A stretch of 64,000 nucleotides of DNA from Escherichia coli (lineage in GTDB: Bacteria; Pseudomonadota; Gammaproteobacteria; Enterobacterales; Enterobacteriaceae). The stretch lies in assembly GCF_050920415.1 (NCBI RefSeq), contig NZ_CP169309.1; one strand, written 5' to 3'. This document shows, piece by piece, positions 12,701 to 24,700 of the stretch (the stretch's first letter is position 1; each line of letters opens with the position of its first letter). A program made the position numbers.

Positions 12701-15700
12701 AGAAAGCAGCACAATTCGTGGCTTATTCTTTGGTTACTCTCATTCTGATATTGGTTTTGATCGCGGCGGTAAAGGCAATGTCGATAGCTATACCCTGGGG
12801 GCTTATGCCGGTTGGGAGCATCAGAACGGTGCCTATGTTGATGGGGTGGTGAAAGTTGACCGTTTTTCCAACACCATCCATGGCAAGATGAGTAATGGGG
12901 CAACAGCGTTTGGCGATTACAATAGTAACGGCGCGGGTGCTCATGTCGAGAGCGGGTTCCGTTGGGGGGAGGGGTTGTGGAATGTAAGGCCTTATCTGTC
13001 CTTTACCGGCTTTACCACTGATGGTCAGGACTATACGTTATCAAATGGTATGCGAGCGGATGTGGGAAATACCCGCATATTACGCGCTGAAGCGGGAACG
13101 GCGGTAAGCTATCACATGGACCTGCAAAACGGTACGACGCTGGAACCCTGGCTGAAAGCCGCCGTGCGTCAGGAATACGCCGATTCTAACCAGGTGAATG
13201 TTAATGACGACGGCAAATTTAATAATGACGTGGCTGGAACCCGTGGCGTTTATCAGGCTGGGATAAGGTCATCGTTTACCCCGACGTTAAGCGGTCATTT
13301 GTCAGTCAGCTATGGCAATGGCGCGGGGGTAGAATCACCGTGGAATACCCAGGCGGGTGTGGTCTGGACGTTCTGATAACAGAAAATAAACAGGCCGTAA
13401 TGTGTCGCGGTCTGTTTATCAAATTAATCGCAGATATAAAAAAAACCAACCGCAATAGGTTGGTTTTTCTTGGGATTTTTGGTCGCACGAGAGTAGTTTA
13501 ATTGAGTGTATAACTAAATGATTTTAAATAATATTCTTTATTCAACTTTTAAATCGTATAACCAAACGTATAACTAAAATAATTTGCTGAAAAAGTGTAC
13601 AATTTCAGCAATAATTGCCCTAGCGACTATCATCCTGCTCCCCGGATTTTTTCCGGTTAAATGTTAATCAGGCTGCTGGGCTTTGCCTGTTCGGTAGGTG
13701 TAATGATTATCGTAATACTTTTCCCCCAATGGGGTAAAAGCATCAACCGTAACGGAAGTCGTTATGGTTGCCTTGATGATCTGCGTGGTCATTATGACCA
13801 TTCAGCCAATGACCTTAATCAGAGCTTTTCGCTAAAAATGACGTTGGCCACTCGTCCGAAAAGCACAAAATCCCATCGATTTTTAATTAACGGTTAAACC
13901 GTCTTTTTGTCACGTCGTGTCACTGGTTGTCACTCTCCGTCACGATCTCCGATAGCCTGGCTGCAAATTAAACTACGAAAATTTCGTAGTTCTGACTTCT
14001 TTCAGATAGTCGGTTGCCTGGTTACACGAAAAAAATTACTTCCTGCGTTTATCCCGCTTTGTATGTCCGTGCTGAATGCCCCGCAGTGGATCTTCTTTTT
14101 TCAGGTCGATCCCCATGTCCGTTAGTGTTTTTGTGGCGGCGGTTCTTATGGCACAAATCAGGTCTCTTTCCGGTTCCCGGGTTATGGTTGCCTTCCGGAT
14201 ACATGCCGTTCGTCGTTCCGTTACATACTGACGCGCTTCATCACTTGCCGCCTGTTTCAGTAACTCACCCCAGCGATTAGCCGCCCGTCGCCATAAACCT
14301 TTCGCTTCCAGTTCTTCCGCTTTGTCATCATGCACCATAAGCATAATCCCATTGATACCTGTTAAATCTGAATGGTTGGTTTCCGTTCTTTTGATAATTT
14401 CCCTCATAGCTTATTGTATGACAGTACTGTCCCACAATAAGGAATCACACATGAGAATGACCAGGCACAAAAAACAGATTCTTGAACTTTACAAACCTGA
14501 GTATCGCGATTGGGTGCGGGTGGAGGCCGGAGATCCGCCTTTTGATGTTCGTGGTGTGACAGTGCTGCTCTATGGTTCCGAATATCAGCGATATCACATA
14601 GAGGCAACCCGACGAACGTTAAACGCTATGGTAAATGATGGGATCCTGTACCGCGTGAAAGTGCGCGAACCCCGCTTTGATGTGCGTATCGGTAGCGATG
14701 GCGCTCACTGTACGGTAATCCGGTACGGGCTGGGTAAATCAGATGATTAAATCACCAGAATGTAAATTTACATTCTGCCAGCCACCAGCTACAGAACGCA
14801 AATTTGCACTTTGCTGAAATATTAACGGGTTAGGCCAGAGTGCAAATTTGCATTATGCTTTAACTTCAGCAAGTTACCGCCGTAACCGCTCCGGCTTCTT
14901 CCACTGGTACGTTATTTTGGCTTTTTCCCTGTACGTCTGTATCCGGCGACGGTAGGCCAGCATTTCAAGAACGCGGATCCGTATGTCGCGCATATCCGCA
15001 TCATTAAGCTGGATACCATCACGGTGCATCACCTCAGCAACCACACGAACATAATTTTCTGCGGTCACGCTGTCCGGCTGCGTGGCCTGTTCGTCAGCCT
15101 GCTGGTTGATTCCGGCGACGCGGCGGATTAATCGCAGTAGTTCGGTTTCTGTCATTGTGCCCCCATCGCGCTGGTTAAGAAAACAAGCTCAGATTTTTTG
15201 TAAAGAATCTGTCACGCTAAAAGATGTCGAACAAAAAACAACCTTCTCCATCATCTTTTTTGCATCGATTACATTAAAAACAACAGGTTACATACATGAT
15301 GATGATGACGATAAAATCACAAAAATGCGCTTTTTTCCGCGCCCGCCCGCCCCGTGTTCATACCCACCCCACCAGGAGGACCCGCAAAAAAGGCGGCTGG
15401 TGCCGCCTTGTTGTCATAGTGAATCGGTACCGCCTGATTTGACCATACCGCGATAATCCAGAGCGGCCACACCAGCATCAATACGGACTTTCCAGGCCAC
15501 ACCGTCAACGATGAAACCTTCCTGCTGTTCAAGGTAAGGCTCGTCATTGCCATCAAGATAAGCCACCTCGATTGTGTCCGTTCCCTGTGCGGAAAGCATG
15601 TACCATTGTTTTTCGCTGATATCATCAAGGCGGGGATCGACGATAATATCCAGTAGTTTGTGATACGGGTTAAAGATCCCGCTGTTTTTATCTGCCCCGA

Positions 15701-21700: not shown

Positions 21701-24700
21701 TTTGTATTTGCATTTCTCATGAAATATTGCATTAGCAATGAACTTGTCGGTAATGAAAGTGCATGCGCGAGCGCTGAAAAAAATATTCCACTTCTCGTAT
21801 ATGAAAACGAAAGCCCTGTGAACCGCAATTGAGCGAAATTTAATGAATTCACTCTTTGCCCACCAGCCGCAAATGTGGCATTGTTGGCGATGCTCATGCG
21901 TTGGGGATAACGTGTAGCTTGTGTCGAAGGGCCATCGTGACAGGTGGCCTTTTCTTTACCTGTTATCTGGCAATTGTGGCGCTTCGTCACACGGTTGATA
22001 TAATTCCCCTGCACTGATCCATTTTTTTCGCAGCAGGTTAATTGTTCGCAAGGGCGCTCCGGCAACGGGGCGCTTTTTGTTATGTTCATCACGTTACGCC
22101 TCACACCATTACGCAGCCGTTCCGCGCGCTTCTTCCTCGCGCTCTTTCAGCCAGGCCAGCACTTCATCTTCATACCAGCCAACACGACGCAGACCGATTT
22201 TGAAGCCTTTCGGAAATTTTCCGGCGTTGATCATGTCCTGTAGCGAACTGTCTGCCTTGATGCGCAGAATATTTTTTACTTCCTGACGGGTAAGAATTTT
22301 TCTGATTGTTTCCACTATGTTTTACCTCGTTAATCCGGCGTATTCCGGTGATAAATACGGTAAAACAGGGCAGGGCGGGAAAAACAGTACCCACCGTTTT
22401 AAAACGGTACCCACTGTTTTTTATCTTATTGATTACGCTTTTCTTTCTGCAAAAAAATAGCGACCGCAAGGGGCCGCTATTGTGATTACCGTTTCCACTT
22501 CTTAGGTCGCCCACCGCATTTAAGGCTGGTGGGCCTCAGCACCTTGTCGATGCTTTCAGCCAGATTTTTCGATGCGCCACGCGAGCGCAAAAAACTGACT
22601 ACCTCGTGTTTTGTGGGGGCAGTTGATTTGTCTTCCGGATCGTACGTTGACCAGAATTCACGATTTGCCATTAAGGCCAACTGAAGGCCTTCACCATAGG
22701 CAGGGGATACCTTTTCATTGAAAAACACTCGGATAACTCCTTGAATTTCAAGAGTCGGGTCTCTCTGTATATGGTGATTATACGATGGTTTAGCATGGTT
22801 TGCATCGCTTTTACTGGTTTTTTGTACAGTTATACGGCACGGATACCCCTTTTACCACTGGCTATGGTCACTCCGGTTGCTGCGGCCTCTACAAATTCCC
22901 CCCACCAGCGCATAAGCACCACGCGCTTTTCCAGGTAGTTACTTCGGTTATATGCTCGCCTTACCTCGTTCGTGTCCACGTGTGCGAGTGCGGCCTCGAT
23001 TACGTCCGGCTCGAATCCTTCCTCGTTCGCTGCTGTGCTGAATATGGCGCGTAATCCATGAGACACCAGCACGCCAGCGAATCCCATTCGCCGCAATGCT
23101 GCGTTGGCGGTCTGGCTGTTCATAGGCTGCCGTGGGTCTTTCAGGCTAGGGAAAACGTGCTCGCGGTGGTGGCTGATTGGCTTCATGGCCTCCAGTACCG
23201 CCATAGCCTGACTACAAAGCGGGATAACGTGATCACGCCGCATCTTCATGCGTCCGGCGGGGATCGTCCATTGTTGCGCGTCCATGTCGATTTCTTCCCA
23301 GCGTGCTGACGATGCTTCAACCGGACGGGTTACAGTCAGTAGCTGCCATTCAATCAGTAATCTGGTCTGCCGTTCTGTTGCTGATACGGATAAAGCCTGC
23401 ATAAGCTCCGGCAACTGTTCGGGGCGGATTGTTGGCATATGTTTTTTTACAGGGGAGGGGAACGCCTTACGCACATTCATAGCCGGATTGGCATCAATCA
23501 GCCCACTGTTGGCGGCGTAATCCATTACCTCATTAACGCGCTGTAAAACCCGCTTGAGTGTTTCCAGGTTGCCGCGCTCCTTGATGGGTGTAAGCACCTC
23601 AACGAACCTTCGGGCAGTGAGGGTATCTATTGGCGTGTTGCCGATGAACGGGAATACATATTTATCCAGCGAACGCCAGATGTCTTTAATCGTGTTGGGG
23701 GCCAGATTCTGGCTGATTTTCACCTGGTACCATGCCGCCGCCACATTTTCGAACGTGTTCCCTTGTCTTCGGGCCTCTGCCTCTCGTTTTTTCTTCTCAT
23801 GGTCCTGCGGGTCAGTTCCGGCACTGATTAACGTCCTGTACTCGCTACGGCGTTTTCTGGCATCAGCCAGGGAAACATCTTCAAGAGATCCAAAACTCAG
23901 CAATATTCTTTTTTTGTCCGATGGTCGGTAGTAGGAAAATCGCCAGAGTTTTGATCCGGACGGTTTTACCAGGAGAAAAAGCCCACCGCCGTCCTGTAGG
24001 GTGTACTCCTTTTGCGCTGGTCTGGCTGCTTTGATCTGCACTGTGGTTAATGGGGGTGTTTTTCTCGCCATATGTCTATGATTCCACACGAAAAAACAGG
24101 GTTTTAGTTATACGGCTTTAGTTATACGCCAGCCCGTATAACTAAACGTATAACTAAAAAATCCGGCTGATAGCTTATAAATCCGGTGATGTTCGGTGAC
24201 TAAAAACCATAAAAAAACCCGCCAATCAAGTGATTAGCGGGTTATCCCTGTCTTATTCGGTGCTTTCCGGTGATATCCGGTGGGCGATTTGGTCGGCACG
24301 AGAGGATTTGAACCTCCGACCCCCGACACCCCATGACGGTGCGCTACCAGGCTGCGCTACGTGCCGACTCGTGGCTGCTAATACTACCGTTTTCCACAAC
24401 GAATGCAAGTAAGATATTTCGCTAACTGATTTATAATTAATCAGTTAGCGATAAAACGCTTCTCGTCTGTCAGCACCTGCAATAACAAACTTAACTGTGG
24501 TTTTTCATCTTTCACTCTTTCACCACGTAAGTTGTAAGTACGGTATTTACCGTTATTGTTCAGCACCAGCGTCTTTTTCGGGGTGGTAATTGCCAGCGTA
24601 TCGTTATCCGCAGCGGTAACCCAGTAATGACGGCGTTGAGGGTTGAACAAATCCTGACCTTGCGAATATTCGCTGGCAGGTGTGCTGACATGTAGCAGGC

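What the first reader, a model, noticed from the sequence alone, without database searches (positions are those of the whole stretch)
13475..24304. Compact integrative island at tRNA-Pro with satellite-like architecture
A 10.8-kb block bounded by an imperfect 20-bp direct repeat (13475-13494 and 24285-24304, the latter overlapping the 3' end of tRNA-Pro) carries, all on the minus strand: P4-type integrase, AlpA-like regulator, a small-gene operon ending in a P4-family primase/helicase, an iteron origin, and a protease-capsid fusion. The set int + alpA + primase + ori + capsid with no tail, portal or terminase is the hallmark of helper-dependent phage satellites (P4-like, PICI, cf-PICI), but the gene content does not fit any of those families cleanly. 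As far as I recall, K-12 has proL adjacent to yejO with nothing of this kind between them.
Basis: partly seen in the sequence, partly recalled or inferred. Interest (0 to 1): 0.85.

Follow-up and report, generated by a model that had tools for sequence, protein, structure and literature searches.

The report
Known-type phage satellite (PICI) at tRNA-Pro
This 10.8-kb island is an ordinary member of the well-studied Gram-negative PICI family of phage satellites (a close relative of EcCICFT073), and its DNA-packaging signals copy those of Shiga-toxin-type lambdoid phages, which are therefore its likely helpers.

Summary
A 10.8-kb insertion lies between yejO and tRNA-Pro(GGG)/yejM. It has imperfect att repeats, arm-type repeats at both ends, a P4-type integrase, AlpA, a small-gene operon ending in a D5/P4-type primase-helicase, an iteron origin and a ClpP-protease/capsid fusion. 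The site is empty in 3,784 of 5,426 complete E. coli genomes.

Its replication module is 77-97% identical in protein to EcCICFT073, the prototype Gram-negative PICI, and the gene order is the same. It has four of the five SatelliteFinder PICI core components. Published PICI surveys already describe capsid genes, CLP_protease late genes, tRNA-Pro sites and "damaged" distal tRNA fragments.

Only the late module differs from EcCICFT073. It has no Rpp and no lambda-type capsid or decoration genes. It carries the fusion gene flanked by two direct cos sites. Their cosN is 97-100% identical to the cos of Stx-converting lambdoid phages, and the cosB side of the better copy is about 74% identical. Those phages carry the nearest phage homologue of the fusion, at only about 55% identity. 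The fusion is under purifying selection (dN/dS about 0.09), and its role is untested.

Verdict: a new member of a known kind, of low to moderate interest.

The parts
13475..13494 (.). attL. This is the displaced distal fragment of the tRNA-Pro 3' end (TGGTC-GCACGAGAG), carrying a 1-nt deletion.
   Evidence: The same 'tRNA fragment damage' is described for PICIs at tRNA-Pro in PMC10111431.
13508..13580 (.). Arm-type repeats (GTATAAC[TC]AAA) at the distal end. They are presumed integrase arm-binding sites.
   Evidence: family D2. The integrase has an Arm-DNA-bind_3 domain. Binding is inferred.
14036..14338 (-). PerC-family regulator, an accessory gene.
   Evidence: It is 49% identical to the EcCICFT073 PerC.
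14451..14750 (+). Hypothetical 99-aa protein, accessory, function unknown.
   Evidence: Annotated in the near-identical record. No PHROG, NCBIfam or PADLOC hit.
14874..15155 (-). Conserved 93-aa protein (phrog_1561) that is the last gene of the element. It sits where terS lies relative to cos in the phage.
   Evidence: It is 83% identical to the last gene of EcCICFT073. No Pfam hit.
15160..15412 (-). cosA, a near-complete lambdoid cos site (cosQ side, cosN, cosB side). The cosN-like core ACGGGGCGGGCGGGCGCGG runs from 15355 down to 15337.
   Evidence: It is 93-94.5% identical over 110 nt to the region between Rz and terS in Stx phages.
15414..17303 (-). ClpP-like prohead protease / scaffold / major capsid protein fusion (629 aa).
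   Evidence: The Ser and His motifs are retained, and a 35-aa linker present in the phage version is missing. dN/dS is about 0.09.
17300..17527 (-). Small protein (64-75 aa, phrog_4934) whose gene overlaps the start of the fusion gene, so the two look translationally coupled.
   Evidence: dN/dS is 0.05. No Pfam hit.
17700..17950 (-). cosB, the second cos copy, in direct orientation. Its cosN core runs from 17894 down to 17876.
   Evidence: (family D1).
17966..18217 (-). Small post-primase protein (phrog_1231).
   Evidence: It is 97.5% identical to its EcCICFT073 counterpart.
18266..18491 (.). Replication origin, with nine GGTAGAYA iterons in both orientations.
   Evidence: In PICIs the ori lies 3' of pri (PMC6092414).
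18506..20254 (-). Pri-Rep, a D5/P4-family primase-helicase.
   Evidence: It is 91% identical to the EcCICFT073 Pri.
20251..20550 (-). DUF4222 protein of 99 aa. It is an RgdR-family regulator with the RGD motif at residues 20-22.
   Evidence: It is 77% identical to the 99-aa DUF4222 protein of EcCICFT073. I take that protein to be C1493, from its length, its position in the element and the RGD motif; no tool output maps it to c1493. RgdR is described in PMC3378721.
20567..21011 (-). Two small operon genes (phrog_2196 and phrog_5146).
21001..21207 (-). Icd-like protein, the first gene of the replication operon.
   Evidence: NF033153. It is 97% identical to the EcCICFT073 protein.
21324..21353 (-). 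Sigma-70-like promoter (TTGACA, 18-nt spacer, TATGTT) upstream of the Icd-like operon.
   Evidence: This is a consensus match only.
21347..21541 (+). Divergent small Arc/RHH-like gene.
   Evidence: phrog_228, E = 2.8e-5.
22109..22315 (-). AlpA regulator/excisionase.
22486..22728 (-). Small hypothetical gene between int and alpA.
   Evidence: No family hits.
22830..24089 (-). P4-type tyrosine integrase.
24100..24162 (.). Arm-type repeats (four copies of GTATAACTAAA in both orientations) next to int.
24285..24304 (.). attR core, overlapping the intact 3' end of tRNA-Pro (24290-24366, minus strand).

Best explanation
The island is a Gram-negative phage-inducible chromosomal island (PICI) of the EcCICFT073 lineage, integrated by a P4-type integrase into the 3' end of proL.

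Proposed life cycle (inferred by homology with EcCICFT073):
1. A lambdoid helper phage switches on AlpA.
2. AlpA drives excision by Int and expression of the Icd-like...RgdR...Pri operon.
3. Pri-Rep replicates the circle from the iteron origin just downstream of its gene, producing concatemers.
4. The helper terminase cuts and packages these concatemers at the island's cos sites.

This island differs from EcCICFT073 in how it is packaged. EcCICFT073 has a foreign cosB and needs Rpp to retarget the helper TerS. This island has no Rpp. It carries two direct copies of a cos site. Both match the cosN of one group of lambdoid phages, and cosA also matches the flanking cosQ-like and cosB-like blocks. 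That group is the long-tailed Stx1/Stx2-converting phages such as VT1-Sakai and Stx2_12E129, and more distantly mEp460. The island is therefore most likely packaged by plain cos mimicry, using the unmodified terminase of those phages.

Its single late gene encodes protease, scaffold and capsid domains in one polypeptide. It is a diverged copy (about 55% identity) of that phage group's head gene, and it is kept under purifying selection. Its role is not known. By analogy it either modifies or poisons helper capsid assembly, or it is dispensable for transfer, as the capsid gene of EcCICFT073 is.

The RgdR- and PerC-family regulators are accessory cargo.
For: **Family assignment**
- The gene order is the same as in EcCICFT073, with 77-97% protein identity for Icd-like, DUF4222, Pri, the post-primase protein and the terminal 93-aa protein.
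- The domain content of int, alpA and pri fits the family.
- The iteron origin lies 3' of pri.
- No other structural or lysis genes are present.
- The empty site is common, and the integrase/att module sits at proL in 439 of 5,426 genomes.

**Packaging**
- The cos repeats (D1) match the intergenic region between the Rz endopeptidase gene and terS of Stx phages at 93-94.5%.
- cosN is 97-100% identical, and the cosB side is 74% identical for cosA. The equivalent figure for EcCICFT073 cos1 against its own helper is about 50%.
- No Rpp homologue is found anywhere in the window.

**Helper link**
- The best phage homologues of the fusion protein come from the same phage group that matches cos.
- In O157:H7 strain H6437, the same late module sits in a PICI embedded in terL of a prophage that carries the phage-type fusion.
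- The near-identical genome AP042500 has three further cos-like places outside the island.

**Selection on the late genes**
- dN/dS is 0.09 for the fusion and 0.05 for the upstream small gene.
- The late module is present in 142 of 5,426 genomes.

**Published mechanism**
- The EcCICFT073 mechanism comes from PMC6092414 and PMC6739421.
Against: - Nothing here shows excision, replication or transfer.
- The helper identity is inferred from sequence only.
- The three extra cos-like sites in the related genome were not located, so it is unknown whether a competent helper prophage is present.
- The cosB-side identity is 74%, not 100%, and cosB recognition by the helper TerS is untested. An unrecognised Rpp analogue could exist, for example the 64-75-aa or the 93-aa protein.
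- The full island occurs in only 2 of 5,426 complete genomes. That pattern is compatible with recent assembly by recombination, not with a successful mobile clone.
Confidence: 0.8

Rival explanations
1. A minimal capsid-building or size-redirecting satellite. In this reading the protease-scaffold-capsid fusion assembles, on the helper's portal, into satellite-specific and probably smaller shells that exclude the roughly 46-kb helper genome. That would resemble SaPIbov5 Ccm or a one-gene version of a cf-PICI.
For: - The fusion is intact and retains the Ser and His protease motifs. It specifically lacks a 35-aa Pro-rich linker between the protease and scaffold/capsid parts and has a 3-aa insertion near the capsid N-arm.
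- It is under strong purifying selection.
- It forms a lineage with less than 60% identity to any deposited phage, which suggests long specialisation in satellites.
- The cos-plus-capsid-homologue logic parallels SaPIbov5 (PMC8569155).
Against: [quoted passage not shown]
- The island has no portal, adaptor or terminase of its own.
- No structural or experimental data exist for this protein.
Confidence: 0.2
2. A decayed, no longer mobile cryptic element (a 'P4-like prophage remnant'), retained only for its regulators RgdR and PerC.
For: - Related islands such as OI-51/CP-933C were long annotated as degraded P4-like prophages (PMC3378721).
- The RefSeq annotation of the near-identical copy calls the Icd-like gene a pseudogene.
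- The distal att copy carries a deletion.
Against: - All core genes (int, alpA, pri), the origin and both cos sites are intact.
- The Icd-like ORF aligns over 64 of 66 residues at 97% identity to the EcCICFT073 protein.
- Damage to the distal tRNA fragment is typical of active PICIs (PMC10111431).
- The late genes are under purifying selection.
- EcCICFT073, which has the same backbone, is experimentally mobile (PMC6092414).
Confidence: 0.1
3. A P4-like satellite, which would use P2-type helpers and Sid/Psu capsid remodelling.
For: The island has a P4-type integrase, AlpA and a P4-family primase C-terminal domain. SatelliteFinder notes that P4 shares these three components with PICIs (PMC10085698).
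Against: - No Sid, Psu, Delta or Epsilon homologue appears in any scanned ORF.
- No P4 CI/C4-type RNA was found.
- The cos site is lambdoid, not P2-type.
- The backbone is 77-97% identical to a PICI.
Confidence: 0.03

Closest known systems
EcCICFT073, the prototype E. coli Gram-negative PICI (Fillol-Salom 2018 and 2019; PMC6092414, PMC6739421)
   Same: - The order is the same: int, alpA, divergent small gene(s), Icd-like, small genes, DUF4222/RgdR, Pri, ori, small protein, late zone with a capsid gene and two cos sites, terminal 93-aa protein.
- Protein identity is 77-97% across the replication module.
- Both carry a PerC homologue.
- Both are about 10-11 kb.
   Different: - The integrase and att site differ (25% identity; proL here).
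- The late zone is replaced. There is no RppA and no lambda E-like capsid or D-like decoration protein. In their place are a small protein and the ClpP-protease/capsid fusion.
- cosN is GGGCGGGCGGGC-type, not lambda's GGGCGGCGACCT.
- The two cos sites are direct and 2.5 kb apart, not inverted around rppA.
- The cosB side resembles the helper here, whereas in EcCICFT073 it does not.
PICIs and helper-embedded PICIs with a CLP_protease late gene (Tommasini, Mageeney and Williams 2023; PMC10111431)
   Same: - The four-zone organisation is the same: integration, Bro/regulatory, replication, late.
- Late genes are captured from lambdoid helpers.
- Some of those PICIs bear a CLP_protease gene.
- They include tRNA-Pro sites with damaged distal tRNA fragments.
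- The same late module occurs in a terL-embedded PICI in O157:H7 H6437.
   Different: This copy is chromosomal at proL, not helper-embedded. It has no Bro-N protein and no detectable C4/isrK RNA.
SaPIbov5, a cos-type SaPI with the capsid homologue Ccm (PMC8569155)
   Same: It carries the helper's cos site and a diverged homologue of the helper's HK97-fold capsid protein, and it has no terS.
   Different: - It belongs to an unrelated Gram-positive lineage with Stl-type regulation.
- The Ccm function is demonstrated, whereas the function of this fusion is not.
- Ccm is not fused to a protease.
cf-PICIs such as EcCIEDL933 (10.1101/2022.09.08.507074; PMC10085698)
   Same: The left half has int, alpA and pri, and both encode a capsid protein and a protease.
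   Different: This island lacks portal, head-tail adaptor and connector, TerS, TerL and HNH. Those are the components that define cf-PICIs.
Satellite phage P4
   Same: Same integrase type, AlpA, primase C-terminal family, size, and integration into a tRNA gene.
   Different: No sid, psu, delta or epsilon genes, no CI RNA, and a different helper type and cos site.

Membership tests
Gram-negative PICI (EcCICFT073 lineage) | Integrase at one end, at a specific att site. | tested here: met
   The same int/att module sits at proL in 439 genomes. The criterion that prophages never use this site was not tested.
Gram-negative PICI (EcCICFT073 lineage) | AlpA-type regulator and mostly unidirectional transcription. 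| tested here: met
Gram-negative PICI (EcCICFT073 lineage) | Pri-Rep gene followed by an origin with repeats. | tested here: met
Gram-negative PICI (EcCICFT073 lineage) | Size of about 10-20 kb, with no tail, holin, portal or head-tail connector genes (SatelliteFinder 'forbidden' components). | tested here: met
   The island is 10.8 kb.
Gram-negative PICI (EcCICFT073 lineage) | Capsid-morphogenesis component (SatelliteFinder core component iv). | tested here: met
   The fusion has CLP_protease and Phage_capsid_4 domains. The actual SatelliteFinder profiles were not run.
Gram-negative PICI (EcCICFT073 lineage) | terS or Rpp packaging-redirection component (core component v). | tested here: not met
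   There is no RppA homologue and no terS hit. The island would therefore be a 'Type B' PICI. Two cos sites are present instead.
Gram-negative PICI (EcCICFT073 lineage) | Sequence homology to experimentally validated members. | tested here: met
   77-97% protein identity over six proteins.
Gram-negative PICI (EcCICFT073 lineage) | Helper-phage-induced excision, replication, packaging and high-frequency transfer. | not testable with these tools
   This needs induction and transduction experiments.
P4-like satellite | psu-delta-sid operon and epsilon. | tested here: not met
   No such hits in the PHROG or NCBIfam scans.
P4-like satellite | CI/C4 immunity RNA. | tested here: not met
   Rfam finds only the tRNA at E <= 0.1.
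cf-PICI | Own portal, head-tail adaptor and connector, and terminase genes. | tested here: not met
   The only structural hit is the protease/capsid fusion.
Cryptic or defective prophage | Remnants of tail, lysis or terminase genes in or next to the block. | tested here: not met

The most novel reading that the evidence does not exclude
The single protease-scaffold-capsid fusion, with its shortened linker, lets this PICI subfamily build its own shells, possibly smaller ones, on the helper's portal. These PICIs would then take only the portal, terminase and tails from Stx-type lambdoid phages. They would be a one-gene intermediate between classical PICIs and cf-PICIs, and a natural interference factor against Stx-phage production in STEC.
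Probability: 0.18. Interest if true: 0.6.

Novelty: new member of a known kind. Interest (0 to 1): 0.25.

Why it matters
This is mainly a correct annotation. The block is a PICI satellite, not a degraded prophage and not a new satellite class.

Two points have modest value.
- The cos match and the capsid-gene match point to the same phage group. This predicts that long-tailed Stx-converting lambdoid phages are the helpers, and I found no PICI/Stx-phage helper pair reported in the searched literature. If true, such islands could affect Stx-phage yield and spread in STEC.
- The purpose of the capsid genes carried by most Gram-negative PICIs is unresolved. This Rpp-less variant has one strongly conserved all-in-one head gene, which makes it a simple system in which to test that question.

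The island also carries RgdR- and PerC-family regulators. Members of both families are known to modulate LEE type III secretion.

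Tried and rejected
- **Rfam scan of the island for P4 CI/C4/isrK-type RNAs:** only the tRNA was found.
- **PADLOC scan of ten small or accessory proteins:** no defence-system hits.
- **Pfam on the 93-aa and 75-aa late-zone proteins:** no hits.
- **BLASTP of the 64-aa protein against the positionally equivalent 68-aa protein upstream of the EcCICFT073 capsid gene (taken to be c1498):** no similarity, so homology is not shown.
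- **tblastn of all island proteins against the Stx2 phage late region:** only the fusion matches. The small late-zone proteins are therefore not recognisable copies of the helper's W-like, portal or TerS proteins.
- **PDB sequence search with the fusion:** only cellular ClpP chains match the protease part, and no solved relative of the capsid part appears.
- **The 77-aa ORF downstream of cosB (17562-17795):** rejected as a gene. It has no family hit, is not annotated in any related record, is frameshifted in a relative and overlaps the cosB-side DNA.
- **The 367-aa ORF at 21001-22104:** spurious. Only its 3' end is the Icd-like gene.
- **Structure prediction:** not run, because it could not decide the capsid-size question.
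- **The three extra cos-like places in genome AP042500:** these could not be located, because the search tool lists one place per record.

Full report
**1. Observation**

ARAGORN finds one tRNA in the window, tRNA-Pro(GGG), at 24290-24366 on the minus strand.

I aligned them with an unoccupied site from another E. coli (L008). The left junction follows the chromosome up to ...GATTTTTGGTC-GCACGAGAG. The right junction follows it from ATTTGGTCGGCACGAGAGGATTTGAACC onwards. The shared block is therefore TTTGGTCG(G)CACGAGAG, which is the 3' end of the tRNA, and the distal copy carries a 1-nt deletion.

A composite query that joins the two flanks matches as one contiguous piece in 3,784 of 5,426 complete E. 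coli genomes, including a K-12 C600 derivative. The block is therefore a true insertion with presence/absence polymorphism. Repeats of GTATAACTAAA lie inside both ends (family D2), as expected for arm-type sites of an integrase with an arm-binding domain.

The surrounding genes are core chromosome: ccmH, narP and yejO on one side, and yejM, yejL, yejK, rplY and radD on the other. No prophage is adjacent.

**2. Gene content**

The genes below are listed in order from the tRNA end.

| Feature | Coordinates | Evidence |
|---|---|---|
| Integrase (Arm-DNA-bind_3, Phage_int_M, Phage_integrase) | 22830-24089, minus | |
| 61-80-aa hypothetical | 22486-22728, minus | |
| AlpA (PF05930) | 22109-22315, minus | |
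| Arc/RHH-like gene, divergent | 21347-21541, plus | |
| Icd-like (NF033153) | 21001-21207, minus | |
| Two small genes | 20567-21011, minus | |
| DUF4222 protein, 99 aa | 20251-20550, minus | |
| Primase-helicase (D5_N, DUF5906, Pox_D5; TIGR01613) | 18506-20254, minus | |
| Nine GGTAGAYA iterons in 226 bp | 18266-18491 | |
| 83-aa protein | 17966-18217, minus | |
| cos copy (cosB) | about 17700-17950 | |
| 64-75-aa protein overlapping the start of the fusion gene | 17300-17527, minus | |
| Fusion, 629 aa (CLP_protease 41-173, Phage_capsid_4 330-623; NF045540 890 bits, cutoff 475) | 15414-17303, minus | |
| Second cos copy (cosA) | about 15160-15412 | |
| 93-aa protein | 14874-15155, minus | |
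| 99-aa hypothetical | 14451-14750, plus | |
| PerC-family protein | 14036-14338, minus | |

The iteron count of nine compares with 1.46 copies expected by chance in the whole 64-kb window. No scanned ORF matches a portal, terminase, tail, holin or lysin family. All the factual elements of the finding are confirmed.

**3. What it is**

The annotation of related islands led me to compare this island directly with EcCICFT073, the prototype Gram-negative PICI in CFT073 (NC_004431, 1377930-1388654).

| Protein | Identity to EcCICFT073 |
|---|---|
| Pri | 91% over the full length |
| Icd-like | 97% |
| Post-primase small protein | 97.5% |
| DUF4222 | 77% |
| Terminal 93-aa protein | 83% |
| PerC | 49% |

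The gene order is the same. EcCICFT073 has been shown experimentally to be excised, replicated and transferred by lambdoid helpers. It is induced through AlpA and needs int and pri (PMC6092414).

The SatelliteFinder PICI model has five core components: integrase, regulator (alpA), primase-replicase, capsid morphogenesis and terS. It rejects candidates that carry tail, holin, portal or connector genes (PMC10085698). This island has four of the five components and none of the rejected ones, so it would be a Type B PICI.

Tommasini et al. report several relevant facts (PMC10111431):
- 21 of 29 reference Gram-negative PICIs carry a major capsid gene.
- Some PICIs carry a CLP_protease late gene.
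- Many PICIs sit in tRNA genes.
- PICIs at tRNA-Pro show deletions in the displaced tRNA fragment.

The last point is exactly the imperfection seen in the att repeat here. The island is therefore a member of a well-characterised family.

**4. What is different: the late zone and the cos sites**

Only the integration module and the late zone differ from EcCICFT073. The integrase is 25% identical and uses a different att site. There is no homologue of RppA, of the lambda E-like capsid protein or of the D-like decoration protein anywhere in the window.

The 98-nt direct repeat flagged by the repeat finder (15311-15408 and 17850-17947, family D1) contains ACGGGGCGGGCGGGCGCGG. This resembles the ACGGGGCGGCGACCTCGCGG found at both EcCICFT073 cos sites and at the cos of its helper prophage.

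BLASTN of cosA against the phage collection hits only 16 records, and the twelve strongest are lambdoid E. coli phages, ten of them Stx-converting by name. It matches VT1-Sakai and several Stx2a/Stx2d phages at 93-94.5% over 110 nt, and mEp460 more weakly. In Stx2_12E129_yecE the match lies between the Rz endopeptidase gene and terS, which is where the cos site lies in lambda.

| Comparison | cosN core | cosB side (170 nt) |
|---|---|---|
| Island cosA vs Stx2 phage | 97% | 74% |
| Island cosB vs Stx2 phage | 100% | 59% |
| EcCICFT073 cos1 vs its own helper | 93% | about 50% |

On the cosB side, cosA shares long identical blocks with the phage. In EcCICFT073 the foreign cosB is the reason Rpp is needed to retarget TerS (PMC6739421). 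The simplest reading is that this island is packaged by the unmodified terminase of phages with this cos type.

The two cos copies are in direct orientation and bracket the small gene and the fusion gene. In EcCICFT073 the two copies are inverted around rppA.

**5. The fusion gene**

Its best phage homologues come from the same phage group that matches cos, but at only 51-55% identity. No deposited phage exceeds 60%.

Compared with the phage proteins, the island version differs as follows:
- It keeps the ClpP-type AASM (Ser) and MIH(A/K)P (His) motifs.
- It lacks a 35-aa proline-rich linker after the protease domain.
- It has a 3-aa insertion near the start of the capsid domain.

Across four PICI copies, dN/dS is 0.05-0.10 where dS is informative (up to 0.49). 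For the upstream small gene, dN/dS is 0.05. The protein is therefore maintained by selection in satellites.

The late module (14860-17960) is at least 80% covered in 142 of 5,426 genomes, many of them STEC. In O157:H7 strain H6437 the same module belongs to a PICI inserted in the terL gene of a lambdoid prophage, and that prophage carries the phage-type fusion. This is a helper-embedded PICI in the sense of PMC10111431. It directly associates this late module with that phage type.

The protein's function remains open. [quoted passage not shown] In SaPIbov5, by contrast, a capsid homologue (Ccm) redirects capsid size (PMC8569155).

**6. Modularity and prevalence**

| Unit | Genomes out of 5,426 |
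|---|---|
| Integrase-proL module | 439 |
| Late module | 142 |
| This cos type, including prophages | 910 |
| Whole island at 80% coverage or more | 2 |

Islands at proL in other strains combine the same integrase with other replication modules (RepA helicase, DUF5906) and other late modules (lambda-type capsid). The island is one recombinant among many in a shuffling family. The near-identical genome AP042500 has five places matching the cos query. Two are in the island and three lie elsewhere. This fits resident prophages of the helper type, but I could not locate them.

**7. Rivals**

- **P4-like satellite.** Excluded for membership. There are no Sid, Psu, Delta or Epsilon hits, no C4/CI RNA, and the cos is lambdoid.
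- **cf-PICI.** Excluded. The island has no portal, connectors or terminase.
- **Prophage remnant.** Excluded by the flanks and by intact core genes.
- **Inactive relic.** This cannot be excluded without experiments, but it is unlikely given the intact modules and the purifying selection.
- **One-gene capsid builder.** The reading in which the fusion builds satellite-specific, perhaps small, capsids remains possible. I give it about 0.2.

**8. Verdict**

The element is a new member of the known Gram-negative PICI family. Its late-zone variant is Rpp-less and uses cos mimicry, and it points to Stx-type lambdoid phages as helpers. Interest is low to moderate.

Noticed in passing
window 20251-20550 (minus strand): The 99-aa DUF4222 protein has an RGD motif at residues 20-22 (…KFTRGDIY…). 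It is 77% identical to the 99-aa DUF4222 protein of EcCICFT073, which I take to be C1493 (RgdR) from its length, its position in the element and the motif; no tool output maps it to c1493. On that reading it is an RgdR-family regulator. RgdR activates LEE1 and type III secretion and represses motility in EHEC (PMC3378721).
   Followed up: partly
window 14036-14338 (minus strand): A PerC-family protein sits in the accessory end of the island, 49% identical to the EcCICFT073 PerC. Some PICI PerC homologues activate LEE expression and others silence it (PMC11773190).
   Followed up: no
L007 (E. coli O157:H7 H6437, NZ_CP038339), locus 9000-19000: A PICI with the same late module is inserted inside the terminase large-subunit gene of a lambdoid prophage. 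Its fusion is 98.7% identical and its 75-aa protein 100% identical to those of this island. The prophage carries the phage-type protease/capsid fusion. This is a helper-embedded PICI.
   Followed up: partly
window 14792-14876: Two tandem 41-nt units each contain the palindrome TGCAAATTTGCA, 44 nt apart. They lie between the plus-strand 99-aa gene and the 93-aa gene. They look like an operator pair, and their function is unknown.
   Followed up: no
window 22380-22421: An abutting 21-nt inverted repeat (AAAAACAGTACCCACCGTTTT / AAAACGGTACCCACTGTTTTT) lies about 65 nt upstream of alpA. It is a candidate regulator binding site at the promoter that helper phages are thought to switch on.
   Followed up: no
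window 21208-21541: An Arc/RHH-like small gene is transcribed divergently from the Icd-like...Pri operon, and a strong sigma-70-like promoter (21324-21353, minus strand) overlaps its start. Whether Gram-negative PICIs have a repressor is unresolved in the literature, and this gene is a positional candidate.
   Followed up: no
window 15414-17303, compared with L005 12492-14516 and L007 3833-5812: The satellite version of the protease/capsid fusion lacks a 35-aa proline-rich linker present in the phage versions. It also has a 3-aa insertion near the start of the capsid domain.
   Followed up: partly
NZ_AP042500.1 (genome most similar to the window): That genome has five places matching the island's cos region, two in the island and three elsewhere. 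The three may be prophages of the predicted helper type. They were not located.
   Followed up: no
window 10782-13376 and 52214-55265: yejO (864 aa), psuG, psuT and yeiL are intact ORFs in the window. In the otherwise 99.8%-identical record AP042500 they are annotated as frameshifted or carrying internal stops. The window is therefore from a different strain or assembly.
   Followed up: partly
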